Translations under genes and position numbers: made by a program
Assembly: GCA_031256725.1 (NCBI GenBank)
Contig: JAIRQE010000010.1
Location: forward strand, 1 to 32,000
Source: Propionibacteriaceae bacterium
GTDB taxonomy: Bacteria > Actinomycetota > Actinomycetes > Propionibacteriales > Propionibacteriaceae
DNA: 32,000 bases
Direction of reading: 5' to 3'
Notes under the pieces: model-generated
Seen by the model: the letters and a program-made list of their open reading frames with translations, nothing else
The model's database searches: none
What the model was told of the DNA's origin: nothing
Shown: positions 6,001 through 26,411 of the stretch, in pieces
Layout of the letters: each line of letters begins with the position of its first letter
How positions within the stretch are numbered: position 1 is the first letter of the stretch

Positions 6001-8808
6001 GTCTCCGGTGTCGCCTTCGACTTCGTCAAGGCAGTCGGTGAGGAACTCACCATCGGGTCACAGTGTGTGACTGGTGACAGTGGTCAGTGCGTGGTCTATG
6101 CGACCTCCACAGTGGCTGGCGCTTATCTGGCTCACGCATCAGTCGATGGTAGTGAACTGACGAGCCATGGTTCCCCAGTGACACTCAACTTCGTCTCCAA
6201 GGATGTTTGCATCGTTGAGAACGGTTGCGAGCCCACTGGGCTAGGTGCTGATCCTAAGTATCAGACTCGTGTTGAGGTCACAACTGACTATCAGACTGCT
6301 GATGGTATGACGGCTGACATTGTCACCGCCTATGCCTTTGACGAGTTGGGCAATGTGGTTGACGCCACGACCTTCACCTTCACTGCCATCTCTGAAGATC
6401 TATCGATCCAGTCAAGTTGTGTAACCAATGAGTCGGGCGTGTGTACCGTCAATGCGACCTCTAAGGTTGCAGGTGCCCACCTTGCTAGCGCGAAGTACGA
6501 AGGTACAGAACTCATCAAGCATGGGTCTCCTGTGACACTCAACTTCGTGGCTGGCGAGATCTGCCTCATTGAGGAAGGCTGTGAGCCAACTGGTCCAGGT
6601 GCTGATCCTAAGCATCAGACTCGTGTAGTCGTGACCAAGGACGCCCAGAAAGCTGATGGTGTGGCCACAGACCAGGTGACTGCCTATGCCTTTGATTCTG
6701 AAGGCAACGTGGTTGAGGGTCGTACCTTCACCTTCGAGGCAGTCTCAGATGATCTCGTGATCGAGGGTTCTTGTACCACTGATGTCACAGGCGAATGTAG
6801 TGTCAACGCAACCTCCACGGTTGCTGGCTCACATCTCGCACGCGGGTTCATCAGTGGCACGGAGCTGTCAAGCAGTGGCTCCCCATTGACGCTGAGGTTC
6901 GTCTCCGGCGGAGTCTGCATTGTTGAGGATGGTTGTGAGTCGGTTGGCCCAGGTGCCGATCCTGCGCGCCAGACTCGCATCGAGGTGACAACCGACTTCC
7001 AGACAGTTGGTGGCGATCCTAACGTGATCACCGGTTATGCCTTCGATGAGTACGGCAATGTGGCTTCAGGTGTACAGTTCAGCTTTGCTGAGATCGATTC
7101 AAGTGATCTCACGATCCTGCCTGCAACACCAAGTCGCCTGCGTACTGCAACGGTATGTACAACCAATGATGAGGGTGAGTGCTCAGTGAATGTGACCTCC
7201 CAGGTTGCAGGAGCCTACCTGCTTTCAGGCACTGCTCAGGGTGTTGAACTGACCAGTCATGGTTCTCCAGCGACTGTCACCTTCCTGGCTGAGAAAATCT
7301 GCATCATTGAACAGGGCTGTGAGCCTGAGGGGCCGGGTACTGATCCGAACCGTCAGACTCGAGTCGCCGTCACCACTGATTATCAGAAGGCTGGCAGTCA
7401 TGATGTGGTAACTGCGTACGCCTTCGATGCCAAGGGCAACAAGGTTGAGGGAATGACCTTCACCTTCGAGGCAGTATCTGGTGACCTCACGATTCAGTCC
7501 GAATGTACAACCGATGCTTCGGGTGAATGTCGTGTCAACGCAACCTCCACAGTTGCTGGTGCACACCTAGCTCGGGCCTATGCCAACGGTTATGAGTTGA
7601 GTGCCCATGGCTCGCCACTGACACTGCACTTCGTACCAGCATCGGTGTGTATTGCCGGGTGTGATACTGAGGGTATTGATCCTTCACGTCAGACTCGTGT
7701 CGAGGTGACTCATAACAATGAGGCCGTTGACGGTCCTAATGTGGTGACCGGTTACGCCTACGATGAGTACGGAAACCCAGTTGAAGGAGTGACCTTCACC
7801 TTCGAGAAGTCAGTGGACTCCAATGGTCTTGTCATCGAGTCCAGTTGTACAACTGATGCCTCAGGGAAGTGCAGTGTGAAAGCGACTGCAACTGTTGCAG
7901 GTGAATACCATGCACACGCTTCAATCAACGGCAAGGAACTCATCGGGCACGGTTCACCAGCAGCCATCACCTTCACGGCAGGTTCGATCTGTATCGTAGA
8001 AAATGGGTGTACCCCTGTTGGTCCTGGTACTGATCCACAGCGTCAGACCCGTGTCGAGGTAACCATCAACTACCAGGCAGCTGGAACAGGTACAGATGTC
8101 GTGACCGCCTATGCCTTCGACAGGTATGGCAACGTGGCTTCAGGTGTTGTGTTCACCTTCGTGAAGGTCAGCGATTCTGTGATCATCGAGTCCAGTTGTA
8201 CCTCTGATGCTCGTGGAGTGTGTACAGCCAAGGCAAGCTCTCAGGTTGCTGGGTCTCACAAGGCCAAGGCCTCAGTGGGTGGCCATGAGTTGACTGCTCA
8301 CGGTTCGCCGCTGGAACTGTCCTTCGTTTCCAGTGACGTGTGCGTGATTGAGGACGGCTGCGAGCCTGAAGGTCAGGGTAAGGACCCGAAGCGTCAGACT
8401 CGTGTCGAGGTTGTCGTCAATGATCAGATGGTGAATAGCGGCCAGAATGTCATCCAGGTCTATGCCTTCGATAGGTATGGAAACCTTGTTCACAATGTCT
8501 CCTTCGATATTGAAACAGTTGATACCGACCTCAAGCTGTCTGCCACGACGGTCACCACGGGTACCAATGGTACGGCTCTGGTGACAGCAACTGCTGGTCA
8601 GGCGCGGGCACATATGGCCACGGTGTCCGTCAATGGCAAAGAGTTGACCAACCATGGTTCGCCACTGAATCTGAGGTTCAAGTCACAGCCTGTACCGAAG
8701 GTACCAACAGGTGGTACGGCTATTCCAACTCATCGTGGTCTGGAAGCTGAGACCGAGGTATCCGCAGTGCTCGCTGGTCCAAGGCGTCGTCACTCAGATG
8801 CTGCATAA
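1..8808 (+). CDS. Giant repetitive surface/adhesin-like protein, 5'-truncated by the window edge; about 25 tandem Big_1 (invasin/intimin-type bacterial Ig-like) modules
   Basis: The frame is open from nt 1 (nt 1-9 encode DSC, matching the module motif EDSCTTD); the stop is TAA at 8806-8808. I counted 25 recurrences of the (H/S)GSP(L/V)TL(N/T)F strand. First to last recurrence gives an average period of about 356 nt (about 119 aa). Each module carries the Big_1-like pattern DVVTAYAFDxxGNxVxGxTFTF...CTTDxxGxCSVxATSTVAGAH...V.G.EL. The linker is VCIIEEGCEPEGPGTDPxRQTRVEV. No N-terminus or signal peptide is visible in the window. Confidence 0.85.
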   Translation, partial: DSCMTDSTGECSVTATSTVAADHMARAFVGAYELSERGSPLTLTFTADTVCIIEEGCEPEGPGTDPKNQTRVEVTTNDQIADGVAQDVVTARAFDRQGNKAPNVTFTFSAGDGIDDLIIEDSCTTDCTGDCSVNATSTVAGDHQALAFVGAYELAERGSPLTLTFIADEVCVMEAGCEPEGPGTDYDHQTHVAVTTDNATADGVDVDVVTARAFDRQGNKAPNVTFIFASDDANDDLVIEESCTTDDTGTCTVNANATVAGAHLARASVEGVELISHGSPLALNFVADDLCVVEKGCIPVGPGTDPDRQTRVKVTTDYQTANGVETDVVTAYAYDRHGNVVKDAVIDFVKDAGSPDLVIEESCTTGTTGECSVNATSTVAAAHLARAWVAGTELVTHGSPLALTFVADSVCVTADGCESVGPGTDPDKQTRVEVTLNDQSVDGGQNIVTAYAFDIHGNKVPSVAFLFAKADVNDVMTIEGGCVTDATGTCQVRATSTVKGDHLALASVNGTELSDHGSPLTLTFVSDALCVVEDGCEPVGPGTDPSRQTHVEVTTDYQVVAGVPDVVTAYGFDKYGNVVEGATFDFAKAAGFDDLTIDSQCTTNELGVCTVEARSTVAGAHEAQAWVSGKELSDHGSPLTLTFVADELCVVEDGCETEGLGTEYEYQTRVEVTKDYQPANGSVDVVTAYAYDYLGNAVFGKFFEFEAAEGYDDLFIGSGCTTNDEGTCVVYATSTVAGAHLALASVGGRELSDHGSPLTLNFVADVLCIAEEGCETDGPGSEYEYQTRVEVTTDYQTADGQATDVVTAYAFDANGNVVKDAVFTFETVDGFDDLVIEDTCTTNESGVCTVTATSIVAGAHKAHASIGVTELTSHGSPVTLNFVSDEICIIELGCDPGTDDKHRTRVEVTTDSQTADGVAQDVVTGYAFDVNGNVVEGETFTFATINDASDLIIGESCTTDETGECTVTATSKIAGAHQVAAFRDGIELVSSGSPLTLTFVSDSLCIAEEGCESEDPQRRTRAEVTTDYQTVNDQPDVVTAYAYDLNGNAVSGVKFDFEPAPGFDDLVIGDSCVTGDNGQCSVEATSIVAGAHEALASIGDSELTKSGSPLTLNFVSDVICIVENGCEIEGPGTDPNRQTRVEVTLDYQKTNGSADVVTAYAYDYLGNVVSGTFFTFEAADGYDDLFIGSGCTSNDEGTCVVYATSTVAGAHQALASVDGTQLSDHGSPLTLNFIADDLCMIEQGCTPVGPGTDPKRQTRVEVTTDNQTADGMSADVVTAYAYDQNGNVVKDVTFLFASADGFDDLVIEELCTTDATGMCTVKATSTVAGAHKAQAWAGATELTSTDSPVTVNFVAGAICLIEAGCDPDGPGTDPDKQTRVEVTTDDQTADGTSADVVTAYAFDLNGNKVEGETFTFTKVDPISDLVIEGSCTTDKSGECSVNATSKTAGAHLVSATVADTELTSHGSPVTLNFVADKVCIIEEGCEPEGPGADPDKQTRVEVTVDYQTVNDEPDLVTAYAFDINGNVKKGVTFTFVNAPGYDDLVIDSACVTDESGQCTVEARSAIAGAHQGLASVNGMELTSSGSPLTLNFVSAEVCIIEAGCEPEGPGTDPERQTHVSVTTDYQTADGVATDIVTGYAFDYLGNVVEGRTFTFYAATSDLVIDADCTTDESGECSVTATSTVAGAHMAAAWANGYELTTHGSPVTLNFVAGKVCLIEEGCEPEGPGADPDKQTRVEVTTDYQRADGVATDIVTAYVFDENGNKKPQVSVTFEAAASDLMIDASCVTNDEGQCTVEATSTVAGAHLARASVNSVELSSHGSPVTLNFVSGDICIIEEGCEPTGPGADPARQTRVEVTTDYQRADGMATDVVTAYAFDENGNRVEGMTFTFVAVSEDLMIEAQCISDASGECTVTATSTVAGAHLARTLVGGTELTLHGSPLTLNFEAGDVCVIEKGCEPTGPGADPERQTRVEVTKDFQEVGGSADVVTAYAFDENGNKVSGVAFDFVKAVGEELTIGSQCVTGDSGQCVVYATSTVAGAYLAHASVDGSELTSHGSPVTLNFVSKDVCIVENGCEPTGLGADPKYQTRVEVTTDYQTADGMTADIVTAYAFDELGNVVDATTFTFTAISEDLSIQSSCVTNESGVCTVNATSKVAGAHLASAKYEGTELIKHGSPVTLNFVAGEICLIEEGCEPTGPGADPKHQTRVVVTKDAQKADGVATDQVTAYAFDSEGNVVEGRTFTFEAVSDDLVIEGSCTTDVTGECSVNATSTVAGSHLARGFISGTELSSSGSPLTLRFVSGGVCIVEDGCESVGPGADPARQTRIEVTTDFQTVGGDPNVITGYAFDEYGNVASGVQFSFAEIDSSDLTILPATPSRLRTATVCTTNDEGECSVNVTSQVAGAYLLSGTAQGVELTSHGSPATVTFLAEKICIIEQGCEPEGPGTDPNRQTRVAVTTDYQKAGSHDVVTAYAFDAKGNKVEGMTFTFEAVSGDLTIQSECTTDASGECRVNATSTVAGAHLARAYANGYELSAHGSPLTLHFVPASVCIAGCDTEGIDPSRQTRVEVTHNNEAVDGPNVVTGYAYDEYGNPVEGVTFTFEKSVDSNGLVIESSCTTDASGKCSVKATATVAGEYHAHASINGKELIGHGSPAAITFTAGSICIVENGCTPVGPGTDPQRQTRVEVTINYQAAGTGTDVVTAYAFDRYGNVASGVVFTFVKVSDSVIIESSCTSDARGVCTAKASSQVAGSHKAKASVGGHELTAHGSPLELSFVSSDVCVIEDGCEPEGQGKDPKRQTRVEVVVNDQMVNSGQNVIQVYAFDRYGNLVHNVSFDIETVDTDLKLSATTVTTGTNGTALVTATAGQARAHMATVSVNGKELTNHGSPLNLRFKSQPVPKVPTGGTAIPTHRGLEAETEVSAVLAGPRRRHSDAA

Positions 8809-18389: not shown

Positions 18390-18878
18390 GTGGGCGTTTT
18401 TGAGATCTTTCAACTGTGTATTCCAGTTGTGACATTTGCTATGGGGTACTTCTTTACGAATATCGGGTACAAGCGGGAGAGAAAGCTGAGCATCATTCGG
18501 GAGAAGTTCGAGAAGCTTTATCATCCGTTTTATATGTTGATTCAGGAACTTGGTACAGAGAGGGAGGACGGGTTCGCCCTCGATAGTGATAATCTTGATA
18601 CCTTGAAACCCTTCTTTGACCACCTGATTAGCAATGTGTATCTCGCATCATCTGAGGGACAGAGGATCTTCTGGGAAACACGACAGTGGTACATCCTGTG
18701 TCACAAGAGCGAGGCAACACCCGAGTGGGAGGAGGCCCTAGGCAAGGGGATTGGAGACCTCTTTAGCCACCTCTTTGAAGAGTACCTCGCCTGCGCTCGA
18801 ACTTTGGGGTACGACCTCGCCTTTGGGTGGTACGGCGCCCGTACCGAAGAAGACTCTGATGCCCAAGAGCAGAGTTAG
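18390..18878 (+). CDS. Hypothetical protein with an N-terminal TM helix; family not recognised
   Basis: 162-aa ORF with a GTG start (an alternative ATG is at 18441). The hydrophobic N-terminus is VFEIFQLCIPVVTFAMGYFFTNIG, followed by a charged soluble region. It sits in a visibly AT-richer stretch directly after the rplQ terminator. Coding status is supported only by ORF length and the lack of competing ORFs. Confidence 0.5.
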   Translation: MGVFEIFQLCIPVVTFAMGYFFTNIGYKRERKLSIIREKFEKLYHPFYMLIQELGTEREDGFALDSDNLDTLKPFFDHLISNVYLASSEGQRIFWETRQWYILCHKSEATPEWEEALGKGIGDLFSHLFEEYLACARTLGYDLAFGWYGARTEEDSDAQEQS

Positions 18879-18880
18879 CG

Positions 18881-18923
18881 CCGGTTTTGTTTTGGTGTGT
18901 TTTCGTGTCAAGAGGCCACAGGT
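18881..18923. repeat. Imperfect direct repeat, copy A (partner at 19071-19113)
   Basis: ccGGTTTTGttTTGGtGtgTTTTCgTGTCAAGAGGcCACAGG compared with ccGttcGGTTTTGGcGcTTTTCcaTGTCAAGAGGACAGG. The shared cores are GGTTTTGG, TTTTC, TGTCAAGAGG and ACAGG. Confidence 0.6.
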
Positions 18924-19070
18924 CGGGTCCTTTAAGAATCAACGGCTTGAACACCATCAATTCTTTAGGGACACGACCCCCCCCCACACACACAACCAAC
19001 CTCACACCCACGTACACCCTTCCCCCCCACCGCAGATGAGACGAGCCGCTTATACCTAAGCAGAATCAGG

Positions 19071-19113
19071 GCCGTTCGGTTTTGGCGCTTTTCCATGTCA
19101 AGAGGACAGGCCC
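19071..19113. repeat. Imperfect direct repeat, copy B (partner at 18881-18923)
   Basis: See copy A. The two copies bracket a C/CA-rich tract (18971-19033: cccccccccacacacacaaccaacctcacacccacgtacacccttcccccccacc). Confidence 0.6.
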
Positions 19114-19137
19114 AAGGATTGGATCATGAATGATCAC

Positions 19138-19545
19138 TCAATAGGTTAGTCTTCCAACAGGGTCCTCGGTCGTGAGTACCTCCCAGCCGAGCGAGGTTGC
19201 GGTCTTAATGAGTCCCTGATCAAAGGTCGCCAAGGTCGCACCGTGATAAGCGACCGTATCTAGAACGCAACAATGAGGCAAACGCAAGCGAGTGGAAATG
19301 CGAAGATGAGCAATCCTGGAAGGATGGGCGTCATCAGGAGACCATATTTCAATTCCGAGATTATGGATGGCTTGCGTGACGAGTGTCTCGCTGTTAACTC
19401 GCACAGCTCCTACAAGGATCTCTGAATAAGTGAGAGGATGAAGGAGTAGCTCTTCCTCGTGATCCATGATGGTTGCAGCAGGCTGAGAATGGATGTGACC
19501 TTTTTCCAAGAGTGCAATGACCACGCAGGCATCGAGAACGATCAT
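19138..19545 (-). CDS. vapC: PIN-domain ribonuclease toxin (VapC family)
   Basis: 135 aa with N-terminus MIVLDACVVIALL (conserved Asp at position 5). Further acidic positions occur in TYSEIL, CVLDTV and TFDQGL, as expected for the PIN catalytic quartet. It lies 11 nt downstream of a small RHH-like gene. Confidence 0.85.
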   Translation of the reverse strand: MIVLDACVVIALLEKGHIHSQPAATIMDHEEELLLHPLTYSEILVGAVRVNSETLVTQAIHNLGIEIWSPDDAHPSRIAHLRISTRLRLPHCCVLDTVAYHGATLATFDQGLIKTATSLGWEVLTTEDPVGRLTY

Positions 19546-19556
19546 TCACCCCAGCC

Positions 19557-19814
19557 TTACCAGTCTTTGCGTAATTCTTCAAGAAAGTTGTCAGGGAACG
19601 CCCCGGATAGAATCCCTTGTGATTCAGCTATTGCTTTCCTTCGAACAGCTCTCTTCGCCTCTCGCTCATCGGCCAAAGCCTGAGAACCGAGCACTATCAA
19701 TTGAGTTGCGATCTTGCTTTTGGGGGCATCCGGCCACCGGGAAGCAGCAGCCTCAAGAGCATCTTGAACCTGGTCCGTGAGTGTGATCTGAATACGCGGC
19801 AGAGTGGTAGCCAT
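19557..19814 (-). CDS. vapB: VapB-type antitoxin (ribbon-helix-helix-like N-terminus)
   Basis: 85 aa. MATTLPRIQITLTDQVQDALEAAA fits an RHH beta-strand plus helix. It is followed by a charged linker and a C-terminal FPDNFLEELRKDW toxin-binding-like tail. It sits immediately upstream of vapC. Confidence 0.75.
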   Translation of the reverse strand: MATTLPRIQITLTDQVQDALEAAASRWPDAPKSKIATQLIVLGSQALADEREAKRAVRRKAIAESQGILSGAFPDNFLEELRKDW

Positions 19815-19822
19815 AAGGATAG

Positions 19823-19850
19823 TGTACCACTGAACATCTTTAGTGGTACA
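19823..19850. promoter_or_regulatory. Operator-like perfect inverted repeat upstream of vapB
   Basis: TGTACCACT (19823-19831), a 10-nt spacer, then AGTGGTACA (19842-19850), 9 to 36 nt upstream of the vapB start codon (19812-19814 on the minus strand). An extra half-site, AGTGGTA, lies at 19803-19809. TA operons are typically autoregulated at such palindromes. Confidence 0.5.
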
Positions 19851-19925
19851 GATGCTGGATGGCGAAGACAGTCATGGCACGACACGGTGGTGAACGTCGC
19901 GAAATTAACATTTGTCGTTACTCCA

Positions 19926-20168
19926 GTGGAGCGATTGGTTTCCGCATACCTTGACCTAGCCGAGTCAATGGCTATGAAGCGAATTCCCATGACGATGGAA
20001 GACTGGGAGGAACGGCTCAATGGATTTCCGGCCATAGCCGATCGTGAGATTCTCCAAGATGCTGGAAGAGTGAGCGCAGAGATCGCGAAAGCTCATGTAG
20101 AAACAGAGTTTGAGGAATATCGCATCGCCCAGGATGCGCTCTTTCGTTCGGACTTCGACAGATTCTAG
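19926..20168 (+). pseudogene. 3' remnant of a rhuM-family (virulence protein RhuM-like) gene
   Basis: The last 80 or so codons of ORF 19701-20168 read VERLVSAYLDLAESMAMKRIPMTMEDWEERLNGFPAIADREILQDAGRVSAEIAKAHVETEFEEYRIAQDALFRSDFDRF. From memory this matches the conserved C-terminal region of RhuM-family proteins, which are about 330 aa long when intact. The upstream part of the ORF is antisense to vapB and shows no such similarity. Confidence 0.6.
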
Positions 20169-20221
20169 GAGTTGTAGAATCAGGCCTCCATGAAAACCAG
20201 AAGTGATCTGTATGCTCACGG

Positions 20222-20265
20222 TTATTCTGAATCAGGGGTAGTTTTATTCTGAATCAGGGGTAGTT
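20222..20265. repeat. Perfect tandem duplication, 2 x 22 nt (TTATTCTGAATCAGGGGTAGTT)
   Basis: The copies at 20222-20243 and 20244-20265 are identical. A degenerate third GAATCAGG core lies near 20177. The repeat ends 25 nt upstream of the serS ATG. Confidence 0.95.
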
Positions 20266-20276
20266 GTGGTGAGGCA

Positions 20277-20282
20277 CTAGAC
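20277..20282 (+). promoter_or_regulatory. Candidate -10 hexamer TAGACT for serS (leaderless or near-leaderless mRNA)
   Basis: TAGACT lies 8 nt before the serS ATG, and no Shine-Dalgarno is present (cttgtacccATG). The same hexamer recurs in front of the small-gene copies and the HAD gene. Confidence 0.4.
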
Positions 20283-20290
20283 TTGTACCC

Positions 20291-21565
20291 ATGATTGATC
20301 CGAAACTGATTCGTACTAACCCTGACTACCTGAAGCGTGCCCAAGTAGCGCGCGGGGAGTCTGAAGAGTTGATCGACCAATTGATCTCGGCAGATGAGGA
20401 TCGTCGTACGGCTATCGCAAGCTTTGAGGCACTCAGGGCCCAGCAGAAGGAACTGGGGCGTTCGGTCGCCAAAGCCACATCCGAGACTCGTCCTGCACTC
20501 CTGGCTGAGGCATCAGCATTGGCTGAGAAGGTTAAAGAAGCCGAGGCAGCCTCCAGCGAAGTGGAAGCCACCTTTAATGAGTTGATGGCACTCGTACCCA
20601 ACCCTGTTTTTGATGAGGTACCTCGCGGTGGGGAAGAGGACTTTGCCGTCCTCGAAACTGTCGGGACTCCGCGTGACTTTGAAGCGGAAGGTTTCACGCC
20701 GAAAGACCATCTGGAGCTTGGGGAGATCCTGGGAGCCATCGATATGGAACGAGGGGCCAAGGTTTCGGGATCGCGGTTCTATTTCTTGACGGGTGTGGGG
20801 GCCTTGCTGGAATTGGCGCTGACCCAGTACGCCGTCACGAAGGCGGTGGAATGGGGTTTCAACCCGATGATCGTACCCTCGCTTGTGAAGCCTTCGGCTA
20901 TGGAGGGTACTGGCTTCCTTGGTCAGGCGGCCCAGGATGTCTACCATCTGCCAGCCGATGATCTCTACCTCGTGGGTACCTCTGAGGTTGCGCTGGCTGC
21001 GTACCATTCCGATGAGATCCTGGATGCGGGCACCCTTCCACGAAAATACATGGGGTACAGCCCCTGTTTCAGGCGCGAAGCCGGCTCCTATGGCAAGGAC
21101 ACTCGCGGTATCTTCCGCGTCCACTGGTTCGACAAGGTCGAGATGTTTGTGTACTGCCGTCCTGAGGATTCCGAAGCCGAACACCTCAACCTGCTGAACT
21201 TCGAGAAGGAGTTCATCACCTCGCTGGGGATCCCCTTCCAGGTTCTGGATGTTGCCTCGGGGGATTTAGGGCTGTCCGCAGCCCGCAAGTACGACTGCTA
21301 TGGGTGGGTACCAAGCCAGCAGAAGTACAGGGAAATCACCTCGACCTCGAACTGTACCCAGTTCCAGGCCCGTCGTCTCAATATCAGAGCCCGTTATGAG
21401 GATGGGATCGGCCCAGTCGCAACCCTCAACGGTACCCTGTGCGCCATGCCAAGGATGATCATCATGATCCTGGAGAATAATCAGCAAGAAGACGGCTCAG
21501 TGGTCGTACCTGAGGTGCTTAGACCCTATCTTGGGGGACGTGAGGTACTGTCTCCTCTTTCATAG
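20291..21565 (+). CDS. serS: Seryl-tRNA synthetase
   Basis: 424 aa. It has an N-terminal coiled-coil arm ([17 protein letters not shown]...) and a class II core ([27 protein letters not shown]...[36 protein letters not shown]). Confidence 0.97.
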
Positions 21566-21605
21566 CTGTAGTCTTCCTAGGGATAATTCCTAGAAAGGGA
21601 CAACT

Positions 21606-21827
21606 ATGGCATATACGGTGGTACGGGTCCGTCTTCAAGGATGGACAGACAAGTTCCAGGATTTCGAGTCCGATACTGATTTTGGCGCGCAGGCCTATCC
21701 GGGCCTGGATAATTATCTATCAACGATGGAAATCAGGGGTTGGACAGTTGTTAATACCGCTGTCGCTTCCACAGGTGCTGGTATTCCAGCCCACCTCATG
21801 ATCACCCTTCACCGACCTGATGCTTAG
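21606..21827 (+). CDS. Small protein paralog 1 (DUF4177-like by motif; function unknown)
   Basis: 73 aa: MAYTVVRVRLQGW...FESDTDF...YPGLDNYLSTMEIRGWTVVNTAV...HLMITLHRPDA. The SD AAAGGGA is 5 nt upstream. It shares the MAYT(V/M)VR...D(H/T)DF...YP.LD.YL(S/T)TME.RGW.IV...(T/F)(L/F)HRPE scaffold with the four downstream copies. Confidence 0.7.
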   Translation: MAYTVVRVRLQGWTDKFQDFESDTDFGAQAYPGLDNYLSTMEIRGWTVVNTAVASTGAGIPAHLMITLHRPDA

Positions 21828-21963
21828 TGTCCACCAACAAGGTATCCTCATGAATAACCTCATGAATCCTGGATGTGTTGATGAAGACTGGCTGACTATT
21901 TGAGCGGAGTCATTCTGTGGAAGAACTTTGTACGCAAGGATAGATATTTTACGGGTACCCATC

Positions 21964-21969
21964 TAGAGT
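21964..21969 (+). promoter_or_regulatory. Candidate -10 (TAGAGT) plus conserved leader for paralog 2
   Basis: cTAGAGTtaTATCACATCGATATGAAAGGAAtgtcATG; the leader is 28 nt and carries the SD AAAGGA. It is homologous to the leaders at 22665 and 22926. Confidence 0.4.
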
Positions 21970-21997
21970 TATATCACATCGATATGAAAGGAATGTC

Positions 21998-22204
21998 ATG
22001 GCGTACACGATGGCGTGAGTCCCTCTGATGAGTACATGGAAGGACCCCTGTGAAGAAGTTCAGGATGATCACGATTTTAAAGTGAGGAACAATAGTGCAT
22101 TGGATGAGTATTTGACTACCATGGAGTCACGAGGCTGGTCGATTGTCAATGTCATCAATTCTGATTCCGTAACCTTCCTGATTACTTTTCACAGATCGGA
22201 GTAA
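21998..22204 (+). pseudogene. Small protein paralog 2, interrupted by an in-frame TGA at codon 7
   Basis: atg gcg tac acg atg gcg TGA (22016-22018), then the same frame continues: VPLMSTWKDPCEEVQDDHDFKVRNNSALDEYLTTMESRGWSIVNVINSDSVTFLITFHRSE, stop at 22202-22204. A restart at ATG 22028 would give a 58-aa product lacking the conserved MAYTxVR strand; that is below the ORF-track cutoff. Confidence 0.6.
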
Positions 22205-22275
22205 CCACGAATCCAGGATTGCGAAGATTGGCCGATAACGAGCCTCATGATTAGCCGAATGATTGTGAGGAAACC

Positions 22276-22497
22276 ATGGCTTATACAGTCGTACGAATCA
22301 AGCTTGGGATTTGGAAAGAAAGATTCAAGGAAACACCCACCGACTCTGATTTCGATGTGGATACCTATCCAGAGATGGATGAGTACCTCTCAACGATGGA
22401 GGAACGTGGCTGGTCCATAGTGAACACTGCCGTCAGTTCTGGTAGTAATGGAGTGGCCTACTATCTGCTGGTGACCCTCCATCGCCCCGAGGTATGA
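22276..22497 (+). CDS. Small protein paralog 3 (DUF4177-like by motif)
   Basis: 73 aa: MAYTVVRIKLGIWKERFKETPTDSDFDVDTYPEMDEYLSTMEERGWSIVNTAVSSGSNGVAYYLLVTLHRPEV. The SD GAGGAA is upstream. It is closest to paralog 1. Confidence 0.7.
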   Translation: MAYTVVRIKLGIWKERFKETPTDSDFDVDTYPEMDEYLSTMEERGWSIVNTAVSSGSNGVAYYLLVTLHRPEV

Positions 22498-22502
22498 CCC
22501 GT

Positions 22503-22571
22503 TATACTGCGCGCAAGTCGCAGCATCCAGACCCCAGGATTCCTGGATTCTGCGACTAAAGCGCAGAATGA
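22503..22571. repeat. Conserved intergenic hairpin element, copy a (partner at 23175-23242)
   Basis: taCtGCGCGCAAGTCGCAGCATCcAG...GGATTCTGCGACTaaaGCGCAGAATGAC. It contains the perfect inverted repeat AGTCGCAG/CTGCGACT, flanked by GCGC/GCGC. Confidence 0.7.
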
Positions 22572-22664
22572 CGATGTGTGGTTATTCCCCTCAGCCAGAG
22601 GAAGCTTCTTGATCTGCCCCCCGCAGAAGGAACGGAGTCATTCTGTGGGGACTGTCGATGTGAC

Positions 22665-22670
22665 TAGACT
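22665..22670 (+). promoter_or_regulatory. Candidate -10 (TAGACT) plus conserved leader for paralog 4
   Basis: cTAGACTcgTATCACATCGATATGAAAGGAAatgtcATG; the leader is 29 nt. Confidence 0.4.
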
Positions 22671-22699
22671 CGTATCACATCGATATGAAAGGAAATGTC

Positions 22700-22906
22700 A
22701 TGGCGTACACGATGGTGAGGGTTGGACTGTGGGGATTTCGTGATCCCTTCAAGGAAGTCGAGGATGATCATAGTTTTAAGACGCGAGCCTATCCCGACCT
22801 AGACGACTACCTCACGTCTATGGAGTCTCGTGGCTGGAGGATCGTCACAGTGAACCCTTTGCCTGATGGATTAAATATGCTCATTACATTCCATAGACCT
22901 GAGTGA
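22700..22906 (+). CDS. Small protein paralog 4 (DUF4177-like by motif)
   Basis: MAYTMVRVGLWGFRDPFKEVEDDHSFKTRAYPDLDDYLTSMESRGWRIVTVNPLPDGLNMLITFHRPE. The start was chosen at the family-conserved MAYT with the SD AAAGGA upstream. The ORF-track start at 22685 (MKGNV-) uses an ATG inside the conserved leader that is out of frame in paralog 5. Confidence 0.7.
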   Translation: MAYTMVRVGLWGFRDPFKEVEDDHSFKTRAYPDLDDYLTSMESRGWRIVTVNPLPDGLNMLITFHRPE

Positions 22907-22925
22907 CCGTGTACCTGGCCACGGC

Positions 22926-22931
22926 TAGACT
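22926..22931 (+). promoter_or_regulatory. Candidate -10 (TAGACT) plus conserved leader for paralog 5
   Basis: cTAGACTttagTATCACGTCGATATGAAAGGAAcgccATG; the leader is 30 nt. Confidence 0.4.
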
Positions 22932-22961
22932 TTAGTATCACGTCGATATGAAAGGAACGCC

Positions 22962-23165
22962 ATGGCTTACACAATGGTACGAATCCCTATGGTAGGTGTC
23001 TTCTCAAGCCCCTTCAAAGTAGTTGAGGATGACCATGACTTTAAAGTGAAAAACCATCCCGAGTTGGATGATTATCTGACGACCATGGAGTCGCGAGGAT
23101 GGGCAATCATATCCGTTGAGTCCTTCGGTGAAGGAATCCTCGTGACCTTTCACAGACCTGAGTAG
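22962..23165 (+). CDS. Small protein paralog 5 (DUF4177-like by motif)
   Basis: 67 aa: MAYTMVRIPMVGVFSSPFKVVEDDHDFKVKNHPELDDYLTTMESRGWAIISVESFGEGILVTFHRPE. It is closest to paralogs 2 and 4. Confidence 0.7.
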   Translation: MAYTMVRIPMVGVFSSPFKVVEDDHDFKVKNHPELDDYLTTMESRGWAIISVESFGEGILVTFHRPE

Positions 23166-23174
23166 TCACCACGT

Positions 23175-23242
23175 CATACCGCGCGCAAGTCGCAGCATCT
23201 AGGCATAGAATTCTGGATTCTGCGACTGAGTGCGCAGAATGA
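23175..23242. repeat. Conserved intergenic hairpin element, copy b (partner at 22503-22571)
   Basis: taCcGCGCGCAAGTCGCAGCATCtAG...GGATTCTGCGACTgagtGCGCAGAATGAC, with the same AGTCGCAG/CTGCGACT stem as copy a. Confidence 0.7.
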
Positions 23243-23255
23243 CTGTACAAACAGC

Positions 23256-23261
23256 TAGACT
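23256..23261 (+). promoter_or_regulatory. Candidate -10 (TAGACT) for the HAD gene (leaderless configuration)
   Basis: gcTAGACTcgtaaacATG. The hexamer is 7 nt before the ATG at 23269 and there is no SD. The CTAGACTCGTA context is identical to that in front of paralog 4. Confidence 0.4.
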
Positions 23262-23268
23262 CGTAAAC

Positions 23269-24078
23269 ATGGCGATACGAAGGGTCCCTCAACAATGGAA
23301 GCCCCAGCTTGTCGCCGTTGATATAGATGGCACAATCGTTGGTCGTGATGGAATCGTACCCCCCGAGATTGCGGAGAAGCTTTGCCAGATCCGCACCCAA
23401 GGGGTGCCGGTCGTGATCGTCACGGGGCGTTCGTGGCTGTCCTCCCAGATCATCCTTGACCAACTCCAGATTCCGGGAATCTACTGTGTTTGCAATAATG
23501 GCGCCACTGTGGTCACCTATCCACCCCTTGCCCTGCATCGGGCGGAAACCTTCGATCCAACCCCGATCCTTGAAGTGGTACGACACCACCCAACCGCCAT
23601 CGTGGCTATCGAGGATTTTGGGAGGGGGTACAAGGTATCCAAACCCTTCCCACCAGGGATATATAGTCTCCATGGAGAAACGACTCTCGTGACCCTTGAT
23701 GAGATGGCCCAAGAACCCCAGTCGAGAGTGATCTTGCGTGATCCCGAGTCAAGCGCAGAAGAATTCGATGTACTGCTTGCTCAGATTGATTTGGGGGATC
23801 TCTATTCCGCAAGGGTTGCTCCCACATGGTTGGATCTGGGCGCTAGTACAGCTGGAAAAGACAAAGGGTTAGCTTTCGTGGCAGCCCAACTGGGAATCGA
23901 ACAGGCAGATGTACTAGGTATCGGTGATGGGTACAACGATATTGACTTGCTGAGTTGGGTTGGTAGGGGAGTGGCTCTTGGTGATTCCCCGCCCGAATTG
24001 GTGGCTGTCGCAGACCATGTGACTGCGAGTTTCGCCGAGGGGGGAACCCTGTCCGAGCTGCGGCGATGGTTTGAGTAA
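23269..24078 (+). CDS. Cof-type HAD-IIB family phosphatase/hydrolase
   Basis: HAD motifs: I VAVDIDGTIV; II VVIVTGRS; III GKDKG; IV GIGDGYNDIDLL. The start is uncertain: candidates are 23230 GTG, 23239 ATG and 23269 ATG. I prefer 23269 because the upstream codons lie inside the repeated intergenic element. Confidence 0.85.
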   Translation: MAIRRVPQQWKPQLVAVDIDGTIVGRDGIVPPEIAEKLCQIRTQGVPVVIVTGRSWLSSQIILDQLQIPGIYCVCNNGATVVTYPPLALHRAETFDPTPILEVVRHHPTAIVAIEDFGRGYKVSKPFPPGIYSLHGETTLVTLDEMAQEPQSRVILRDPESSAEEFDVLLAQIDLGDLYSARVAPTWLDLGASTAGKDKGLAFVAAQLGIEQADVLGIGDGYNDIDLLSWVGRGVALGDSPPELVAVADHVTASFAEGGTLSELRRWFE

Positions 24079-24183: not shown

Positions 24184-25557
24184 ATGATTGATGTGACGGA
24201 CCTGACTAAGAGGTTCGGTAGGAAGACTGCTGTCGACGATTTAAGCTTCTCCGTGCGCGCAGGTATGGTTACCGGATTCTTGGGACCCAATGGGGCAGGT
24301 AAGTCCACAACAATGAGGCTCATTCTTGGCCTTGATCGACCCAACAACGGTCGTGCTCGCGTTAATGGTCGTACCTACAAATCCACTAAGGCGCCTATGA
24401 CAGAGGTTGGTGCCCTTCTTGACTCCAAATCTGTACACCCTGGACGTACTGCTCGCAATCATCTTCGTGCGCTGGCGGCCACCCATGGAATCTCACGGAA
24501 ACGAGTCGATGAAGTCATCGAGATGGTTGGCCTTGAGTCTGTTGCCAGAAAGCGGGCTGGTACCTTCTCCCCAGGGATGAGCCAACGCCTAGGGTTAGCG
24601 ATCGCATTATTGGGAGATCCGCAGACTCTCATCCTTGATGAGCCTATGAACGGGCTTGATCCTCAGGGGGTTGCATGGCTCCGAAACCTCTTGGAGCATC
24701 TGTCATCTGAGGGGAGGACAGTCTTCGTTTCAAGCCATCTCATCTCAGAAATGGCTCAGCTTGCCAGTCATCTCATTATCATCGGTAGGGGACAACTCAT
24801 CGCGGATTCACCCACGGCTGAGCTTGCCGAGAAAGGGTCAGGCGTTGTCACGCGTGTGAGATCCCCTGAATTGGGAGAACTTGCGGAAGCGGTCAAGGAA
24901 GCCGGTCATACTTATACCGATCCGGGGGATGGATCACTGTTGATCTCAGGATTGACCCCGGACGCCATTGGTGATGAGGCGGCTTACAGGGGCTGGGCAA
25001 TCTATGAGATGGCTCCAGTACACCGCACCCTGGAGGAAATCTACATGGAGTTGACCCACTCCGTGCAGGAGTTCCAGGCAGAAAACAGCATCTTCGGGTC
25101 TCCAATGAGGAGTCCTTCAAAGCCACCCGTCATACTAAAACCACCCGTGTCCATGCATACGATTCCCCACGAAGCGCCTGTCCAACATCACCGTCGCGAT
25201 GTGGAGCCCCAAAGTCTCACAACCACGGGAAGCCATCGAGTGACCGATATTTTCCGTGACGACGATACCCCACCACCTGATCCTGTACACATATCAACTC
25301 CCCATTTGCAGTTGGGGCCGGTACGATCTCCCCAAACACGTCCGGGACGAGCACCCACAGATTCGATCGTGCCAAGCGACCTGGGGCCACATGTGCGGCC
25401 AAGGCCTATGGGAGTCCATCCCAGTGCAGATTCATGGGATGACTCCTATGATGATACCCGCATACCTGAGTCTTATGACTACGACTCCTATGACTCTGAT
25501 TATGATGACGATGATGATTACGCCCATCCCCCCAGATCCCGGGCATGGGAGGTCTGA
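24184..25557 (+). CDS. ABC-2-type exporter ATP-binding protein with a roughly 155-aa disordered C-terminal extension
   Basis: NBD: Walker A GPNGAGKST, signature FSPGMSQRL, Walker B LILDEPMNGLD, H-loop SSHL. The domain ends near TLEEIYMELTHSVQEFQAE. From about nt 25081 the sequence is low-complexity: Pro-rich, then SADSWDDSYDDTRIPESYDYDSYDSDYDDDDDY. Confidence 0.9.
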   Translation: MIDVTDLTKRFGRKTAVDDLSFSVRAGMVTGFLGPNGAGKSTTMRLILGLDRPNNGRARVNGRTYKSTKAPMTEVGALLDSKSVHPGRTARNHLRALAATHGISRKRVDEVIEMVGLESVARKRAGTFSPGMSQRLGLAIALLGDPQTLILDEPMNGLDPQGVAWLRNLLEHLSSEGRTVFVSSHLISEMAQLASHLIIIGRGQLIADSPTAELAEKGSGVVTRVRSPELGELAEAVKEAGHTYTDPGDGSLLISGLTPDAIGDEAAYRGWAIYEMAPVHRTLEEIYMELTHSVQEFQAENSIFGSPMRSPSKPPVILKPPVSMHTIPHEAPVQHHRRDVEPQSLTTTGSHRVTDIFRDDDTPPPDPVHISTPHLQLGPVRSPQTRPGRAPTDSIVPSDLGPHVRPRPMGVHPSADSWDDSYDDTRIPESYDYDSYDSDYDDDDDYAHPPRSRAWEV

Positions 25558-26411
25558 TGGCGAGAGTAAAACTGTCCTTCTTTAGGATGATCAGAGCCGA
25601 ATGGATCAAGATCTTTACAGTACGTTCAACCGGCTGGATCCTGCTCCTGTGTATTCTGATCAGCATAGGACTCTCTGCCGCTTTTGCTGCCTCTCTCCAG
25701 TACTCGGAGGTCATGCTCAGACGTAGCTCGGAATCCTCAGACCTCGACCCTGGGGCCTTTGGGCCCCTCGTGGTCCATGTGGTGATGGCCTGTGGACTTT
25801 TTGGGCAATTGTTTTTCATGATCCTGTCTATCCTCATGATCACCAACGAATACTCAACGGGTACGGTTCGCTCGACCTTCACAGTCGCCCCCCGACGGAT
25901 TCGTGTACTCATCTCAAAGATGCTTGTTCTTGTGGTGATCTGTGTTGTCACTTTCGCTATTTCTGTGGTGGCATCCTGGGCGGTGGGGTACCTCATCTTG
26001 CAGAATTGTGTACTCACGGACCTGACACTCATCTCGTATACGAATCTGAGGATAGCGGGGGGATTCCTGGCGAAGATGGTACTCGTGTCTCTCTTCTGTT
26101 TTGGCCTTGGCGCCATGATCCGTTCCACTGCCGGAAGCATTGGTACCTCTGTGGCTATTCTGTGGGTGCTACCTATCATCGCTGCGACTGTTGCTTCAAT
26201 GATCTCTGGTGCGGGTGAGCCCGTTGGTTGGCGCGAGTGGATCGTCAAAATAGGGGAGTTCCTTCCCACGAATGCTGGTGATCTGATCATCCAAGAGAAC
26301 CCATCATCACGGGTATTCCTCCCGTGGGGAGGAACCGCAGCACTTGGAGGATGGGCCTTCGGGTCGATCATCCTTGCCTTCATAGCAACTGCCAGGCGCA
26401 GGATTCAATGA
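25557..26411 (+). CDS. ABC-2 family transporter permease
   Basis: The N-terminus MARVKLSFFRMIRAEWIKIFTVRSTGWILLL and six or so hydrophobic segments are typical of ABC-2 permeases. The ATG at 25557 overlaps the ATPase stop by 1 nt (TGATG) and follows GGGAGG. The ORF-track start at 25545 is an alternative. Confidence 0.85.
   Translation: MARVKLSFFRMIRAEWIKIFTVRSTGWILLLCILISIGLSAAFAASLQYSEVMLRRSSESSDLDPGAFGPLVVHVVMACGLFGQLFFMILSILMITNEYSTGTVRSTFTVAPRRIRVLISKMLVLVVICVVTFAISVVASWAVGYLILQNCVLTDLTLISYTNLRIAGGFLAKMVLVSLFCFGLGAMIRSTAGSIGTSVAILWVLPIIAATVASMISGAGEPVGWREWIVKIGEFLPTNAGDLIIQENPSSRVFLPWGGTAALGGWAFGSIILAFIATARRRIQ

What the first reader, a model, noticed from the sequence alone, without database searches (positions are those of the whole stretch)
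21566..23270. Tandem array of five paralogous small genes (67-73 aa), each with its own promoter-like leader, between serS and the HAD phosphatase
Five copies of one small ORF family occupy 1.7 kb, at 21606, 21998 (interrupted), 22276, 22700 and 22962. The shared scaffold is MAYT(V/M)VR(I/V).....(F)....D.DF....(Y/H)P.LD(D/E/N)YL(S/T)(S/T)ME.RGW.I(V/I)......(L/I)(V/I)T(L/F)HRPE. There are two subfamilies, 1/3 and 2/4/5. The N-terminal beta-strand-like MxYxxVR and the C-terminal GW.IV....F/LHRP block recall the DUF4177 pattern (xEYKxV ... GWELVxV ... FKRP). That is motif-level inference only. The proteins have diverged strongly while the non-coding leaders of copies 2, 4 and 5 remain nearly identical (CTAGA(C/G)T..TATCAC(A/G)TCGATATGAAAGGAA). 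That pattern suggests diversifying selection on the proteins with conserved regulation. It is reminiscent of immunity-protein, antitoxin or anti-phage decoy arrays, though no cognate toxin or effector gene is adjacent. The region looks AT-richer than the flanking housekeeping genes.
Basis: partly seen in the sequence, partly recalled or inferred. Interest (0 to 1): 0.75.

Follow-up and report, generated by a model that had tools for sequence, protein, structure and literature searches.

The report
Five-copy small-protein array after serS
Five tandem copies (one inactivated) of a small acidic protein of unknown function lie just after the seryl-tRNA synthetase gene of an uncultured termite-gut bacterium; the gene is normally single-copy at this spot in related bacteria, and it shows no sign of being a defence or immunity array.

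Summary
Five paralogous small ORFs lie between serS and a Cof-type HAD phosphatase. There are two subtypes: A (copies 1 and 3) and B (copies 2, 4 and 5). Copy 2 is interrupted by one in-frame CGA>TGA nonsense codon. A second assembler's contig reproduces the array base for base.

The interpretation mostly fails. All pairs are saturated at synonymous sites (pS 0.65-0.93) while pN is 0.19-0.40. These are old paralogs under purifying selection, not diversifying ones. No toxin, defence or phage family matches.

The family is tiny: 11 representatives among 1.84 billion proteins. Every locus that carries an organism name is a higher-termite-gut Propionibacteriaceae MAG. In 19 of 23 distinct loci the gene sits immediately downstream of serS. 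It is usually single-copy, with a strong ribosome-binding site. Two loci have two copies; only this window has five. The outgroup Propionicicella has serS-HAD with nothing between.

AlphaFold models (pLDDT 68-70) give a beta-alpha-beta-beta fold, the topology reported for DUF4177. Pfam hits are below threshold and the profile-profile comparison is not significant.

The B-copy leaders are homogenised within this genome. TAGACT also lies 7 nt before the serS and HAD start codons, so it is probably a real -10 box.

Function is unknown. My best guess is a small cytoplasmic binding or oligomerising protein co-expressed with SerRS. Interest is modest.

The parts
20278..20283 (+). TAGACT, a -10-like hexamer 7 nt upstream of the serS ATG. 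This suggests a leaderless serS mRNA.
   Evidence: Four of the five TAGACT sites in the window sit just upstream of + strand genes.
20291..21565 (+). serS (seryl-tRNA synthetase, 424 aa), the conserved upstream neighbour of the family
   Evidence: Pfam Seryl_tRNA_N + tRNA-synt_2b. serS lies immediately upstream of the small gene in 19 of 23 loci.
21569..21574 (+). TAGTCT, a -10-like hexamer before copy 1. L005 has a TAGTCT at a similar distance (about 30 nt) before its type A gene.
21606..21827 (+). Copy 1, type A, 73 aa, intact
   Evidence: HMM E 2.4e-32
21963..21997 (+). Leader of copy 2: CTAGAGT...TATCACATCGATATGAAAGGAATGTC (a -10-like hexamer, a small 5' hairpin and a Shine-Dalgarno sequence)
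21998..22204 (+). Copy 2, type B, probable pseudogene. It has an in-frame TGA at codon 7 (22016-22018), the nearly invariant F17 is replaced by C, and HRPE has become HRSE. A 58-aa remnant ORF starts at 22028.
22276..22497 (+). Copy 3, type A, 73 aa, intact. No -10-like hexamer lies upstream, so it is probably co-transcribed with copy 2.
22498..22580 (+). REP-like palindromic element, a long hairpin (-41.3 kcal/mol, z -8.7) downstream of copy 3
   Evidence: (D8, D10). Related copies occur in L007, L001 and L002.
22664..22699 (+). Leader of copy 4: CTAGACT (-10-like hexamer at 22665-22670), TATCACATCGATATGAAAGGAA
22700..22906 (+). Copy 4, type B, 68 aa, intact. The in-frame ATG at 22685 lies in the leader and is not conserved in frame in copies 2 and 5.
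   Evidence: Frame of the leader ATG read from the sequence.
22925..22961 (+). Leader of copy 5: CTAGACT (22926-22931), TATCACGTCGATATGAAAGGAA
22962..23165 (+). Copy 5, type B, 67 aa, intact
23166..23250 (+). Second REP-like palindromic hairpin (-39.1 kcal/mol, z -5.4) downstream of copy 5
23256..23261 (+). TAGACT, a -10-like hexamer 7 nt before the probable HAD start. The flanking CTAGACTCGTA is identical to the copy 4 leader.
23269..24078 (+). Cof-type HAD-IIB phosphatase. The likely true start is ATG 23269; the longest ORF begins at GTG 23230, inside the REP-like element. HAD is the ancestral direct neighbour of serS.
   Evidence: The outgroup L018 has serS-HAD adjacent.
24184..26411 (+). 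ABC ATPase (24184-25557) and ABC-2 permease (25545-26411). They are frequent but not obligatory downstream neighbours.

Best explanation
The five ORFs belong to a small, lineage-restricted family of acidic cytoplasmic proteins of 67-86 aa. The predicted fold is beta-alpha-beta-beta, with a variable acidic loop after strand 1. The family is a conserved passenger of the serS operon in a clade of higher-termite-gut Propionibacteriaceae. The ancestral state was one type A gene inserted between serS and the Cof-type HAD phosphatase and co-transcribed with serS. A second subtype (B) arose in a sub-clade. In this MAG the locus grew to A-B-A-B-B through old tandem duplications. Copy 2 was later knocked out by a nonsense mutation.

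Four of the five copies have a -10-like TAGNNT hexamer upstream and all five have a purine-rich Shine-Dalgarno-like stretch before the ATG, so they can probably be expressed independently of serS read-through. The B leaders have been kept alike within this genome, by gene conversion or by a shared regulatory constraint.

Steps shown here: the genes exist, they are under purifying selection, they are linked to serS, copy number varies between genomes, and no toxin or defence partner is present. Steps inferred: promoter use, co-transcription with serS, and the fold.

My guess at mechanism is that the protein is a small oligomerising or partner/ligand-binding module. The invariant D23, M-E-x-R-G-W and T-x-H-R residues would form the functional surface. 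Its dosage or A/B composition would matter alongside SerRS and HAD expression. The biochemical function remains undetermined.
For: The ORFs are real and conserved. Five window copies match the family HMM at E 1e-22 to 1e-35. The search of the 5.8-billion-protein collection found 18 homologs. An exhaustive search of 1.84 billion representatives found 11.

Selection is purifying: pN 0.19-0.40 against pS 0.65-0.93 for all pairs.

The serS link holds in L001/2/3, L005/6, L007/11, L008, L009, L010, L016, L022-24, L026, L028, L029 and L031-35. The gene starts 2 nt after the serS stop in L001. It overlaps the HAD start by 4 nt in L016. The outgroup Propionicicella has serS-HAD directly adjacent.

Copy number is 1 in 20 of the 23 loci, 2 in L005 and L010, and 5 only here.

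The paralogs are old. Copy 4 is 72-76% identical to L005_B and P0005 but at most 62% to its array mates. Copy 3 is 64% identical to L005_A but 52% to copy 1.

Two AlphaFold models agree on beta-alpha-beta-beta (pLDDT 67.7 and 70.0). The proteins have pI 4.6-5.2, the intact copies have no Cys, and they are not hydrophobic overall (GRAVY -0.1 to -0.5).

TAGACT lies upstream of serS, copy 4, copy 5 and HAD. Leaders match at 32-33 of 40 positions between paralogs; random 40-mers match at 21.3 +/- 2.5. All named sources are termite-gut MAGs.
Against: No functional evidence exists. There are no expression data, no significant match to any characterised family or solved structure, and no partner demonstrated. 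Four loci (L004, L013, L014, L025) carry the gene away from serS or on a contig too short to show it, so the link is not obligatory. The models are of only moderate confidence, and residues 11-31 are poorly predicted. The NJ tree rests on about 70 columns, so the order of duplications is uncertain. Gene conversion in the leaders is inferred from a similarity pattern, not demonstrated.
Confidence: 0.6

Rival explanations
1. Regulatory or accessory subunit tied to serine supply. On this reading the small protein binds SerRS or the adjacent HAD phosphatase, or binds a small ligand in the manner of an ACT-like or dodecin-like beta-alpha-beta-beta module. It would tune their activity. The A and B types would form distinct homo- or hetero-oligomers.
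For: The gene sits tightly next to serS, and often HAD, with the same orientation, in 19 of 23 loci. The start and stop spacings in L001 and L016 suggest translational coupling. ACT domains recur among the weak Foldseek hits: PurU, AHAS small subunit, AcuB, aspartokinase and homoserine dehydrogenase. One off-locus member follows formate-THF ligase, a one-carbon and serine-related gene.
Against: All Foldseek hits are non-significant (E >= 0.02) and cover only part of the fold. No fusion to SerRS or HAD was found among 1.84 billion representatives. HAD is absent from several loci (L005, L007, L010, L026, L028). The outgroup functions without the gene. Synteny alone cannot separate function from co-transcription.
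Confidence: 0.15
2. Secreted bacteriocin-like or leaderless peptides, exported or neutralised by the adjacent ABC-2 transporter. Multiple structural-gene paralogs would be present, as in bacteriocin loci.
For: A DUF4177 protein (PEG 446) was reported to have antibacterial activity (PMC11322243). An ABC ATPase and ABC-2 permease follow the genes in many loci. The best NCBIfam match of the ATPase is the lantibiotic-protection subfamily, at 197 bits, below the 310-bit cut-off.
Against: The proteins are acidic (pI 4.6-5.2) and not hydrophobic overall. The alignments show no signal peptide or double-glycine leader, and the intact copies have no Cys. No modification enzyme or C39-peptidase transporter is present. 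The transporter is absent next to the gene in L001, and HAD separates it from the gene in other loci. DUF4177 membership itself is unproven. The N-terminus is the conserved strand 1, not a leader.
Confidence: 0.08
3. Immunity, antitoxin or anti-phage decoy array under diversifying selection.
For: The array consists of tandem small acidic paralogs. The region is slightly AT-richer than its flanks. A VapBC-like pair and a RhuM fragment have been inserted just upstream of serS, so accessory DNA does accumulate here.
Against: pN/pS is well below 1. The gene is single-copy and syntenic within a housekeeping operon across the clade. No toxin or effector lies in the window or in the related loci. PADLOC and PHROGs give no hits.
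Confidence: 0.07
4. Functionless or decaying duplicates, or an assembly artefact.
For: Copy 2 is nonsense-interrupted and has lost the nearly invariant F17. The source is a MAG.
Against: Four copies are intact with conserved cores. Purifying selection is clear. The family is conserved in 23 loci. A second assembler's contig (Logan SRR14710887) reproduces the array exactly.
Confidence: 0.03

Closest known systems
DUF4177 (Pfam PF13783)
   Same: Both are about 60-70 aa. The predicted beta1-alpha-beta2-beta3 order matches the topology reported for DUF4177. Both have an aromatic-x-V N-terminal strand, a G-W-x-[IL]-V motif at the start of strand 2 and a basic [HK]-R near the C-terminus. A sub-threshold full-length Pfam alignment covers residues 3-70 of copy 3 against profile positions 3-64 of 65.
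   Different: Scores are below the gathering threshold (at most about 15 bits against 25). hhalign and HMM cross-searches are not significant. This family has a roughly 20-residue acidic loop, an invariant M-E-x-R-G-W motif, and a serS-operon context not described for DUF4177. DUF4177 itself has no established function.
DUF2812 (PF11193), N-terminal region
   Same: Weak hits occur in 7 of 24 members, aligned to the region up to the G-W motif.
   Different: Hits are below threshold. DUF2812 is a longer profile (110 positions) and only profile positions about 20-72 align. From my own recollection, not tested here, DUF2812 proteins also carry membrane segments; the proteins here are short, acidic and not hydrophobic overall.
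Stand-alone beta-alpha-beta-beta or ACT-like small binding modules (dodecin, ACT domains)
   Same: Size and secondary-structure order are similar. A conserved Trp sits at the start of strand 2, as in dodecins; that comparison rests on my own knowledge and was not tested. ACT domains recur among the weak Foldseek hits.
   Different: No significant structural or sequence match was found: dodecin 3onr gave TM 0.26, and ACT hits had E >= 0.08 and were partial. ACT has two further elements (alpha2, beta4).
Tandem immunity-gene or orphan-antitoxin arrays
   Same: Both are tandem arrays of small acidic paralogs.
   Different: Here there is no toxin, no hypervariability and no defence-island context. 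The gene is normally single-copy in a housekeeping operon.

Membership tests
DUF4177 (PF13783) | Pfam HMM score at or above the gathering threshold (25 bits) | tested here: not met
   Copy 3 scores 15.1 bits (E 0.027) and the other four window copies have no hit. Eight of 24 family members hit at E < 1, with a best E of 0.0046.
DUF4177 (PF13783) | Significant profile-profile or reciprocal HMM similarity to bona fide DUF4177 proteins | tested here: inconclusive
   hhalign against nine clostridial DUF4177 proteins gave 3.7% probability over 19 columns around the G-W motif. HMM cross-searches scored 2-7 bits. The DUF4177 alignment available was shallow, so a deeper one could change the result.
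DUF4177 (PF13783) | beta-alpha-beta-beta topology in about 60-70 residues | tested here: met
   The AlphaFold models give E2-10/H32-43/E47-55/E62-70 (pLDDT 67.7) and E2-9/H32-43/E47-53/E59-66 (pLDDT 70.0). The DUF4177 topology is taken from PMC11322243. Model confidence is moderate.
Toxin-antitoxin or polymorphic-toxin immunity array | A cognate toxin or effector gene adjacent or in the same operon | tested here: not met
   The neighbours are serS, HAD, ABC transporter genes, a CDF transporter, ribosomal-protein genes and a Big_1 adhesin without a toxin domain. The VapBC-like pair at 19138-19814 is a separate, complete unit. No toxin is present in the related loci.
Toxin-antitoxin or polymorphic-toxin immunity array | Elevated non-synonymous change or diversifying selection between paralogs | tested here: not met
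   Nei-Gojobori pN is 0.19-0.40 and pS 0.65-0.93 for all pairs. Where dS could be computed, dN/dS is at most 0.34. dS is saturated, so the ratios are rough.
Known anti-phage defence or phage protein families | Match to PADLOC or PHROGs models | tested here: not met
   The four intact copies give no hit at E <= 0.1.
Bacteriocin or RiPP precursor array | A leader or signal sequence with a variable core, cationic or hydrophobic or Cys/Ser/Thr-rich, with modification enzymes or a dedicated peptidase-ABC exporter | tested here: not met
   The proteins have pI 4.6-5.2 and the intact copies have no Cys. Conservation is spread over the whole length, and the N-terminus is the conserved strand 1. The neighbours include no modification enzyme. 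The ABC system is a generic ABC-2 type.
Dodecin (beta-alpha-beta-beta flavin-binding dodecamers) | Sequence or structure match to dodecin | tested here: not met
   There is no Pfam dodecin hit at E <= 10. No dodecin appears in the PDB profile search. Foldseek against 3onr gave TM 0.25-0.26 and probability 0.14-0.15.
REP-like or MITE-like palindromic intergenic repeats (for the two hairpins in the array) | Imperfect long palindromes, intergenic, dispersed in several copies across the genome and in relatives | tested here: met
   There are two copies in the window, with z-scores of -8.7 and -5.4. Further copies lie in L007 (three), L001 and L002, the last as tandem copies of 100-nt period. Genome-wide copy number is not testable from a single contig.

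The most novel reading that the evidence does not exclude
The family is a previously unrecognised accessory factor of the seryl-tRNA synthetase operon, specific to termite-gut Propionibacteriaceae. It would be a small beta-alpha-beta-beta module that binds SerRS, the adjacent Cof-type phosphatase or a serine or one-carbon metabolite. It would couple serine supply to tRNA charging. The five-copy A/B expansion in this MAG would provide alternative subunits under separate promoters.
Probability: 0.15. Interest if true: 0.55.

Novelty: new variant of a known kind. Interest (0 to 1): 0.3.

Why it matters
If the serS linkage reflects function, this would be a lineage-specific small-protein partner of a core translation enzyme. 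No such partner of a bacterial SerRS came up in the profile, structure or literature searches run here, and those searches did not target SerRS partners. The locus would also offer a natural copy-number series (0, 1, 2 and 5) for study. More generally, it shows how a tandem array that looks like a defence or immunity locus can turn out to be an old expansion of a conserved operon passenger. It also gives indirect evidence for TAGACT-type -10 boxes and leaderless serS and HAD mRNAs in an uncultured Propionibacteriaceae lineage. As it stands, it is an uncharacterised small-protein family of narrow distribution and modest interest.

Tried and rejected
- **Family libraries.** Pfam, NCBIfam, PHROGs and PADLOC scans of the copies gave only sub-threshold DUF4177 and DUF2812 hits.
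- **Solved structures.** The PDB sequence-profile search gave nothing below E 0.24. A PDB search with the DUF4177 profile found no solved DUF4177 structure.
- **Fold searches.** Both AlphaFold models were searched with Foldseek: the type A model against PDB and BFVD, the type B model against PDB. No match had E <= 0.001, and the top hits were heterogeneous.
- **DUF4177 comparisons.** hhalign and HMM cross-searches against clostridial DUF4177 proteins were not significant.
- **RNA families.** Rfam found nothing in the array at E <= 0.3 and nothing at gathering score in the whole window. The leaders show no significant RNA structure (z +0.3 to +1.3) apart from a 5-6 bp hairpin near the leader's 5' end.
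- **Promoter scan.** The sigma-70 consensus scan found no site before any of the five copies. Its single match (21559-21587) spans the serS stop and the start of the copy 1 leader, and the count was below the shuffled expectation. The organism evidently does not use TTGACA/TATAAT-type promoters here.
- **Toxin hypothesis.** The 2932-aa ORF is a Big_1/invasin-type adhesin, not a polymorphic toxin.
- **Shared partner.** The off-serS loci L004, L014 and L025 have nothing in common in their neighbourhoods, and L013 is too short to tell.
- **Fusions.** The exhaustive search returned no fusion of the family to SerRS or HAD. The two long hits, P0025 and P0027, match as multiple short stretches; I did not inspect their sequences.

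Full report
**Observation.** They lie at 21606-21827 (73 aa), 21998-22204 (interrupted), 22276-22497 (73 aa), 22700-22906 (68 aa) and 22962-23165 (67 aa). They sit between serS (20291-21565) and a Cof-type HAD-IIB phosphatase. They align end to end with 15 invariant columns. A family HMM finds these five and nothing else in the 32-kb window.

Copy 2 is interrupted by a single in-frame TGA at codon 7 (22016-22018), where copy 5 has CGA. There is no frameshift. Copy 2 has also lost the nearly invariant F17, and its HRPE motif has become HRSE. It is therefore a probable young pseudogene.

The leader block TATCACRTCGATATGAAAGGAA precedes copies 2, 4 and 5; shuffled sequence gave none. The array is 47-50% GC, against 56-58% for serS. 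A Logan contig from run SRR14710887 matches window 19700-23755 at every base, including the stop codon. It may derive from the same reads as the MAG, so it rules out an assembler artefact only. The paralogs are only 53-65% identical in DNA, so repeat collapse is not a concern.

**Distribution of the family.** The profile search of 5.8 billion proteins returned 18 sequences. The exhaustive HMMER search of 1.84 billion representatives returned 11. Every named source is 'MAG: Propionibacteriaceae bacterium'. The GTDB loci carry the isolate names Lab288, Emb289 and Nt197. These are the higher-termite gut MAGs of Hervé et al. 2020 (PMC7024585).

**Genomic context.** I combined look-ups, the genome scan and the metagenome scan into 23 distinct loci.
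- In 19 of them the small gene lies immediately downstream of serS on the same strand. It usually has a strong AGGAGG-type ribosome-binding site and a short gap.
- The gap is 2 nt in L001. In L016 the small gene's stop overlaps the HAD start by 4 nt.
- Downstream come HAD, an ABC ATPase, an ABC-2 permease and a CDF transporter, in various combinations.
- Copy number is one in 20 of the 23 loci, two in L005 and L010, and five only in this window.
- The outgroup Propionicicella superfundia has serS followed directly by HAD. A relative with 78% SerRS identity (L017) has no copy after serS.
- Three loci (L004, L014, L025) carry divergent or single copies in unrelated neighbourhoods with no shared partner, and L013 is too short to tell.

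The gene is therefore a clade-specific insertion into the ancestral serS-HAD pair, and the five-copy array is an exceptional local expansion.

**Evolution of the array.** The two subfamilies are real. Type A ends in TLH[RQ]P and has a longer strand 2-strand 3 loop. Type B ends in TFHRPE. Most single-copy loci are type A-like, so type A is probably ancestral. Type B occurs in the window, L005, L001, L007/L011 and two short contigs.

Every pairwise comparison is saturated at synonymous sites (pS 0.65-0.93), with pN 0.19-0.40. Where dS can be computed, dN/dS is 0.07-0.34. That indicates purifying selection on old duplicates, not diversifying selection.

Copy 4 is closer to proteins from other genomes than to its array mates: 76% to P0005 and 72% to L005_B, against at most 62%. 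Copy 3 is closer to L005_A (64%) than to copy 1 (52%). The tree rests on about 70 columns, so I do not rely on its finer branching.

**Leaders and promoters.** The 40 nt upstream of copies 2, 4 and 5 match at 32-33 of 40 positions. Random 40-mers from the window match at 21.3 +/- 2.5. The same leaders match those of the B genes of two other genomes (L005, L007) at only 22-26 of 40 positions. The coding regions show the opposite ranking. This points to within-genome homogenisation (gene conversion) or a genome-specific regulatory constraint. It does not point to fast protein evolution beside a static promoter.

TAGACT occurs five times in the window, against 9.4 expected by chance. Four of the five sites are just upstream of + strand genes: copy 4, copy 5, serS and HAD. 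For serS and HAD the hexamer sits 7 nt before the ATG. I infer that TAGACT is a genuine -10 box and that serS and HAD are probably leaderless. This relies on established knowledge of actinobacterial TANNNT promoters and leaderless mRNAs, not on a test here.

Copy 2 has TAGAGT and copy 1 has TAGTCT. L005 has a TAGTCT at a similar distance (about 30 nt) before its type A gene. Copy 3 has no such hexamer. The HAD upstream region shares CTAGACTCGTA with the copy 4 leader. The longest HAD ORF starts at GTG 23230, inside a repeat element, so ATG 23269 is the more likely start.

**Repeat elements.** The direct repeats D8 and D10 after copies 3 and 5 are two copies of a long imperfect palindrome. They fold at -41.3 and -39.1 kcal/mol, with z-scores of -8.7 and -5.4. 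Related copies lie in intergenic DNA of the relatives: three in L007, several in L001, and tandem copies of 100-nt period in L002. This is a REP-like or MITE-like family. The elements may stabilise or terminate transcripts and may have served as recombination substrates.

**What the protein is.** The copies are acidic (pI 4.6-5.2) and not hydrophobic overall, and the intact copies have no Cys. Two AlphaFold models, one per subtype, agree on beta1 (2-10), a poorly predicted acidic loop (11-31), a helix (32-43), beta2 (47-55) and beta3 (59-70). Mean pLDDT is 67.7 and 70.0. The invariant residues are D23, M41, E42, R44, G45, W46 and T67. Y3, F17, F26, Y37, L38 and H69 are nearly invariant.

This topology is the one reported for DUF4177 (PMC11322243). 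Pfam DUF4177 aligns over the full length of copy 3, but at 15.1 bits against a 25-bit threshold. Eight of 24 members hit it at E < 1. hhalign against a shallow clostridial DUF4177 alignment gave 3.7% probability, and HMM cross-searches scored 2-7 bits. Foldseek found nothing at E <= 0.001 in PDB or BFVD, and ACT domains recur only among weak partial hits. PHROGs, PADLOC and NCBIfam found nothing. I file the family as 'possibly a remote DUF4177-like fold; membership not established'.

DUF4177 itself has no settled function. One report describes antibacterial activity. One RNA-binding-proteome preprint captured the B. subtilis DUF4177 protein YjzH. One study notes synteny with crp and whiB genes in Streptomyces.

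**Mechanism.** The following points are shown here:
- The genes are real and under selection.
- They are tied to serS.
- They vary in copy number between genomes.
- They have no toxin or defence partner.

I infer that the protein is cytoplasmic and co-expressed with SerRS. I also infer that in this MAG four of the five copies can be driven by their own -10-like hexamers.

My best guess is a small oligomerising or partner/ligand-binding module whose conserved MExRGW and TxHR face is the working surface. The more specific idea that it modulates SerRS or the HAD phosphatase is attractive but rests on synteny alone (probability about 0.15). The bacteriocin reading is disfavoured by the acidity, the lack of a leader and the inconsistent link to the transporter. 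The immunity or decoy reading is disfavoured by purifying selection, single-copy synteny and the absence of a toxin.

**Verdict.** This is a real but ordinary-looking expansion of a narrow, uncharacterised small-protein family. Its one notable feature is near-obligate residence directly after serS. Interest is 0.3.

Noticed in passing
window 22498-22580 and 23166-23250; L007 93-148, 337-392, 750-805; L001 79-288, 6035, 10507; L002 2321-2730: A family of long imperfect palindromes (about GCGCGAAGTCGCAG..CCAGAAT...TTCTGGATTCTGCGACTTCGCGCAGAATGACGG) forms very stable hairpins. It is scattered in intergenic DNA of these termite-gut Propionibacteriaceae MAGs. In L002 it forms tandem copies of 100-nt period. 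It looks like a REP-like or MITE-like element.
   Followed up: partly
window 23230-23271 and 20278-20293: The longest HAD ORF starts at GTG 23230, inside the palindromic element. ATG 23269 is preceded by TAGACT and 7 nt, exactly as the serS ATG 20291 is. Both genes are probably leaderless, and the HAD start is probably mis-called in annotations.
   Followed up: partly
window 18390-20168: About 2 kb of accessory DNA is inserted between rplQ and serS. It holds an unknown 162-aa ORF, a PIN/VapC gene (19138-19545, - strand) with an 85-aa upstream partner (19557-19814, - strand), and a C-terminal fragment of a RhuM-family gene (19701-20168). In relatives, rplQ and serS are 30-400 nt apart.
   Followed up: partly
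window 20222-20265: A perfect tandem duplication of a 22-nt unit (TTATTCTGAATCAGGGGTAGTT x2) lies just upstream of the putative serS promoter.
   Followed up: no
window 10-8808: A 2932-aa ORF carries at least 18 Big_1 / invasin D3 repeats, encoded by tandem DNA repeats of 354-360 nt. It is a giant surface adhesin-like protein with no toxin domain.
   Followed up: partly
window 24184-25557: The ABC ATPase has a C-terminal extension of about 140 aa. The extension is proline-rich and then ends in an extremely acidic D/Y-rich tail (...DSWDDSYDDTRIPESYDYDSYDSDYDDDDDY...). The similarity to homologs in the relatives stops at about residue 300-320 (410 in L005).
   Followed up: no
window 22700-22906 (P0001): NCBI names copy 4 'strawberry notch family protein'. 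The only basis visible here is a 10.7-bit, E 0.24 hit of residues 1-22 to Pfam AAA_34. The name is almost certainly spurious.
   Followed up: yes
window 21985, 22685, 22949: Each B-type leader contains an ATG within TCGATATGAAAGGAA. It is in frame with the gene only in copy 4. In copies 2 and 5 it opens short out-of-frame ORFs that overlap the start codon. These could be incidental or a small uORF-type control.
   Followed up: no
L001 6137-6211: In the relative with a single type B copy, the gene is followed by a tRNA-Pro(CGG) on the opposite strand and an AAA_14/DUF4143 ATPase instead of HAD and ABC genes. The region downstream of the small gene is therefore rearranged between clade members.
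   Followed up: no
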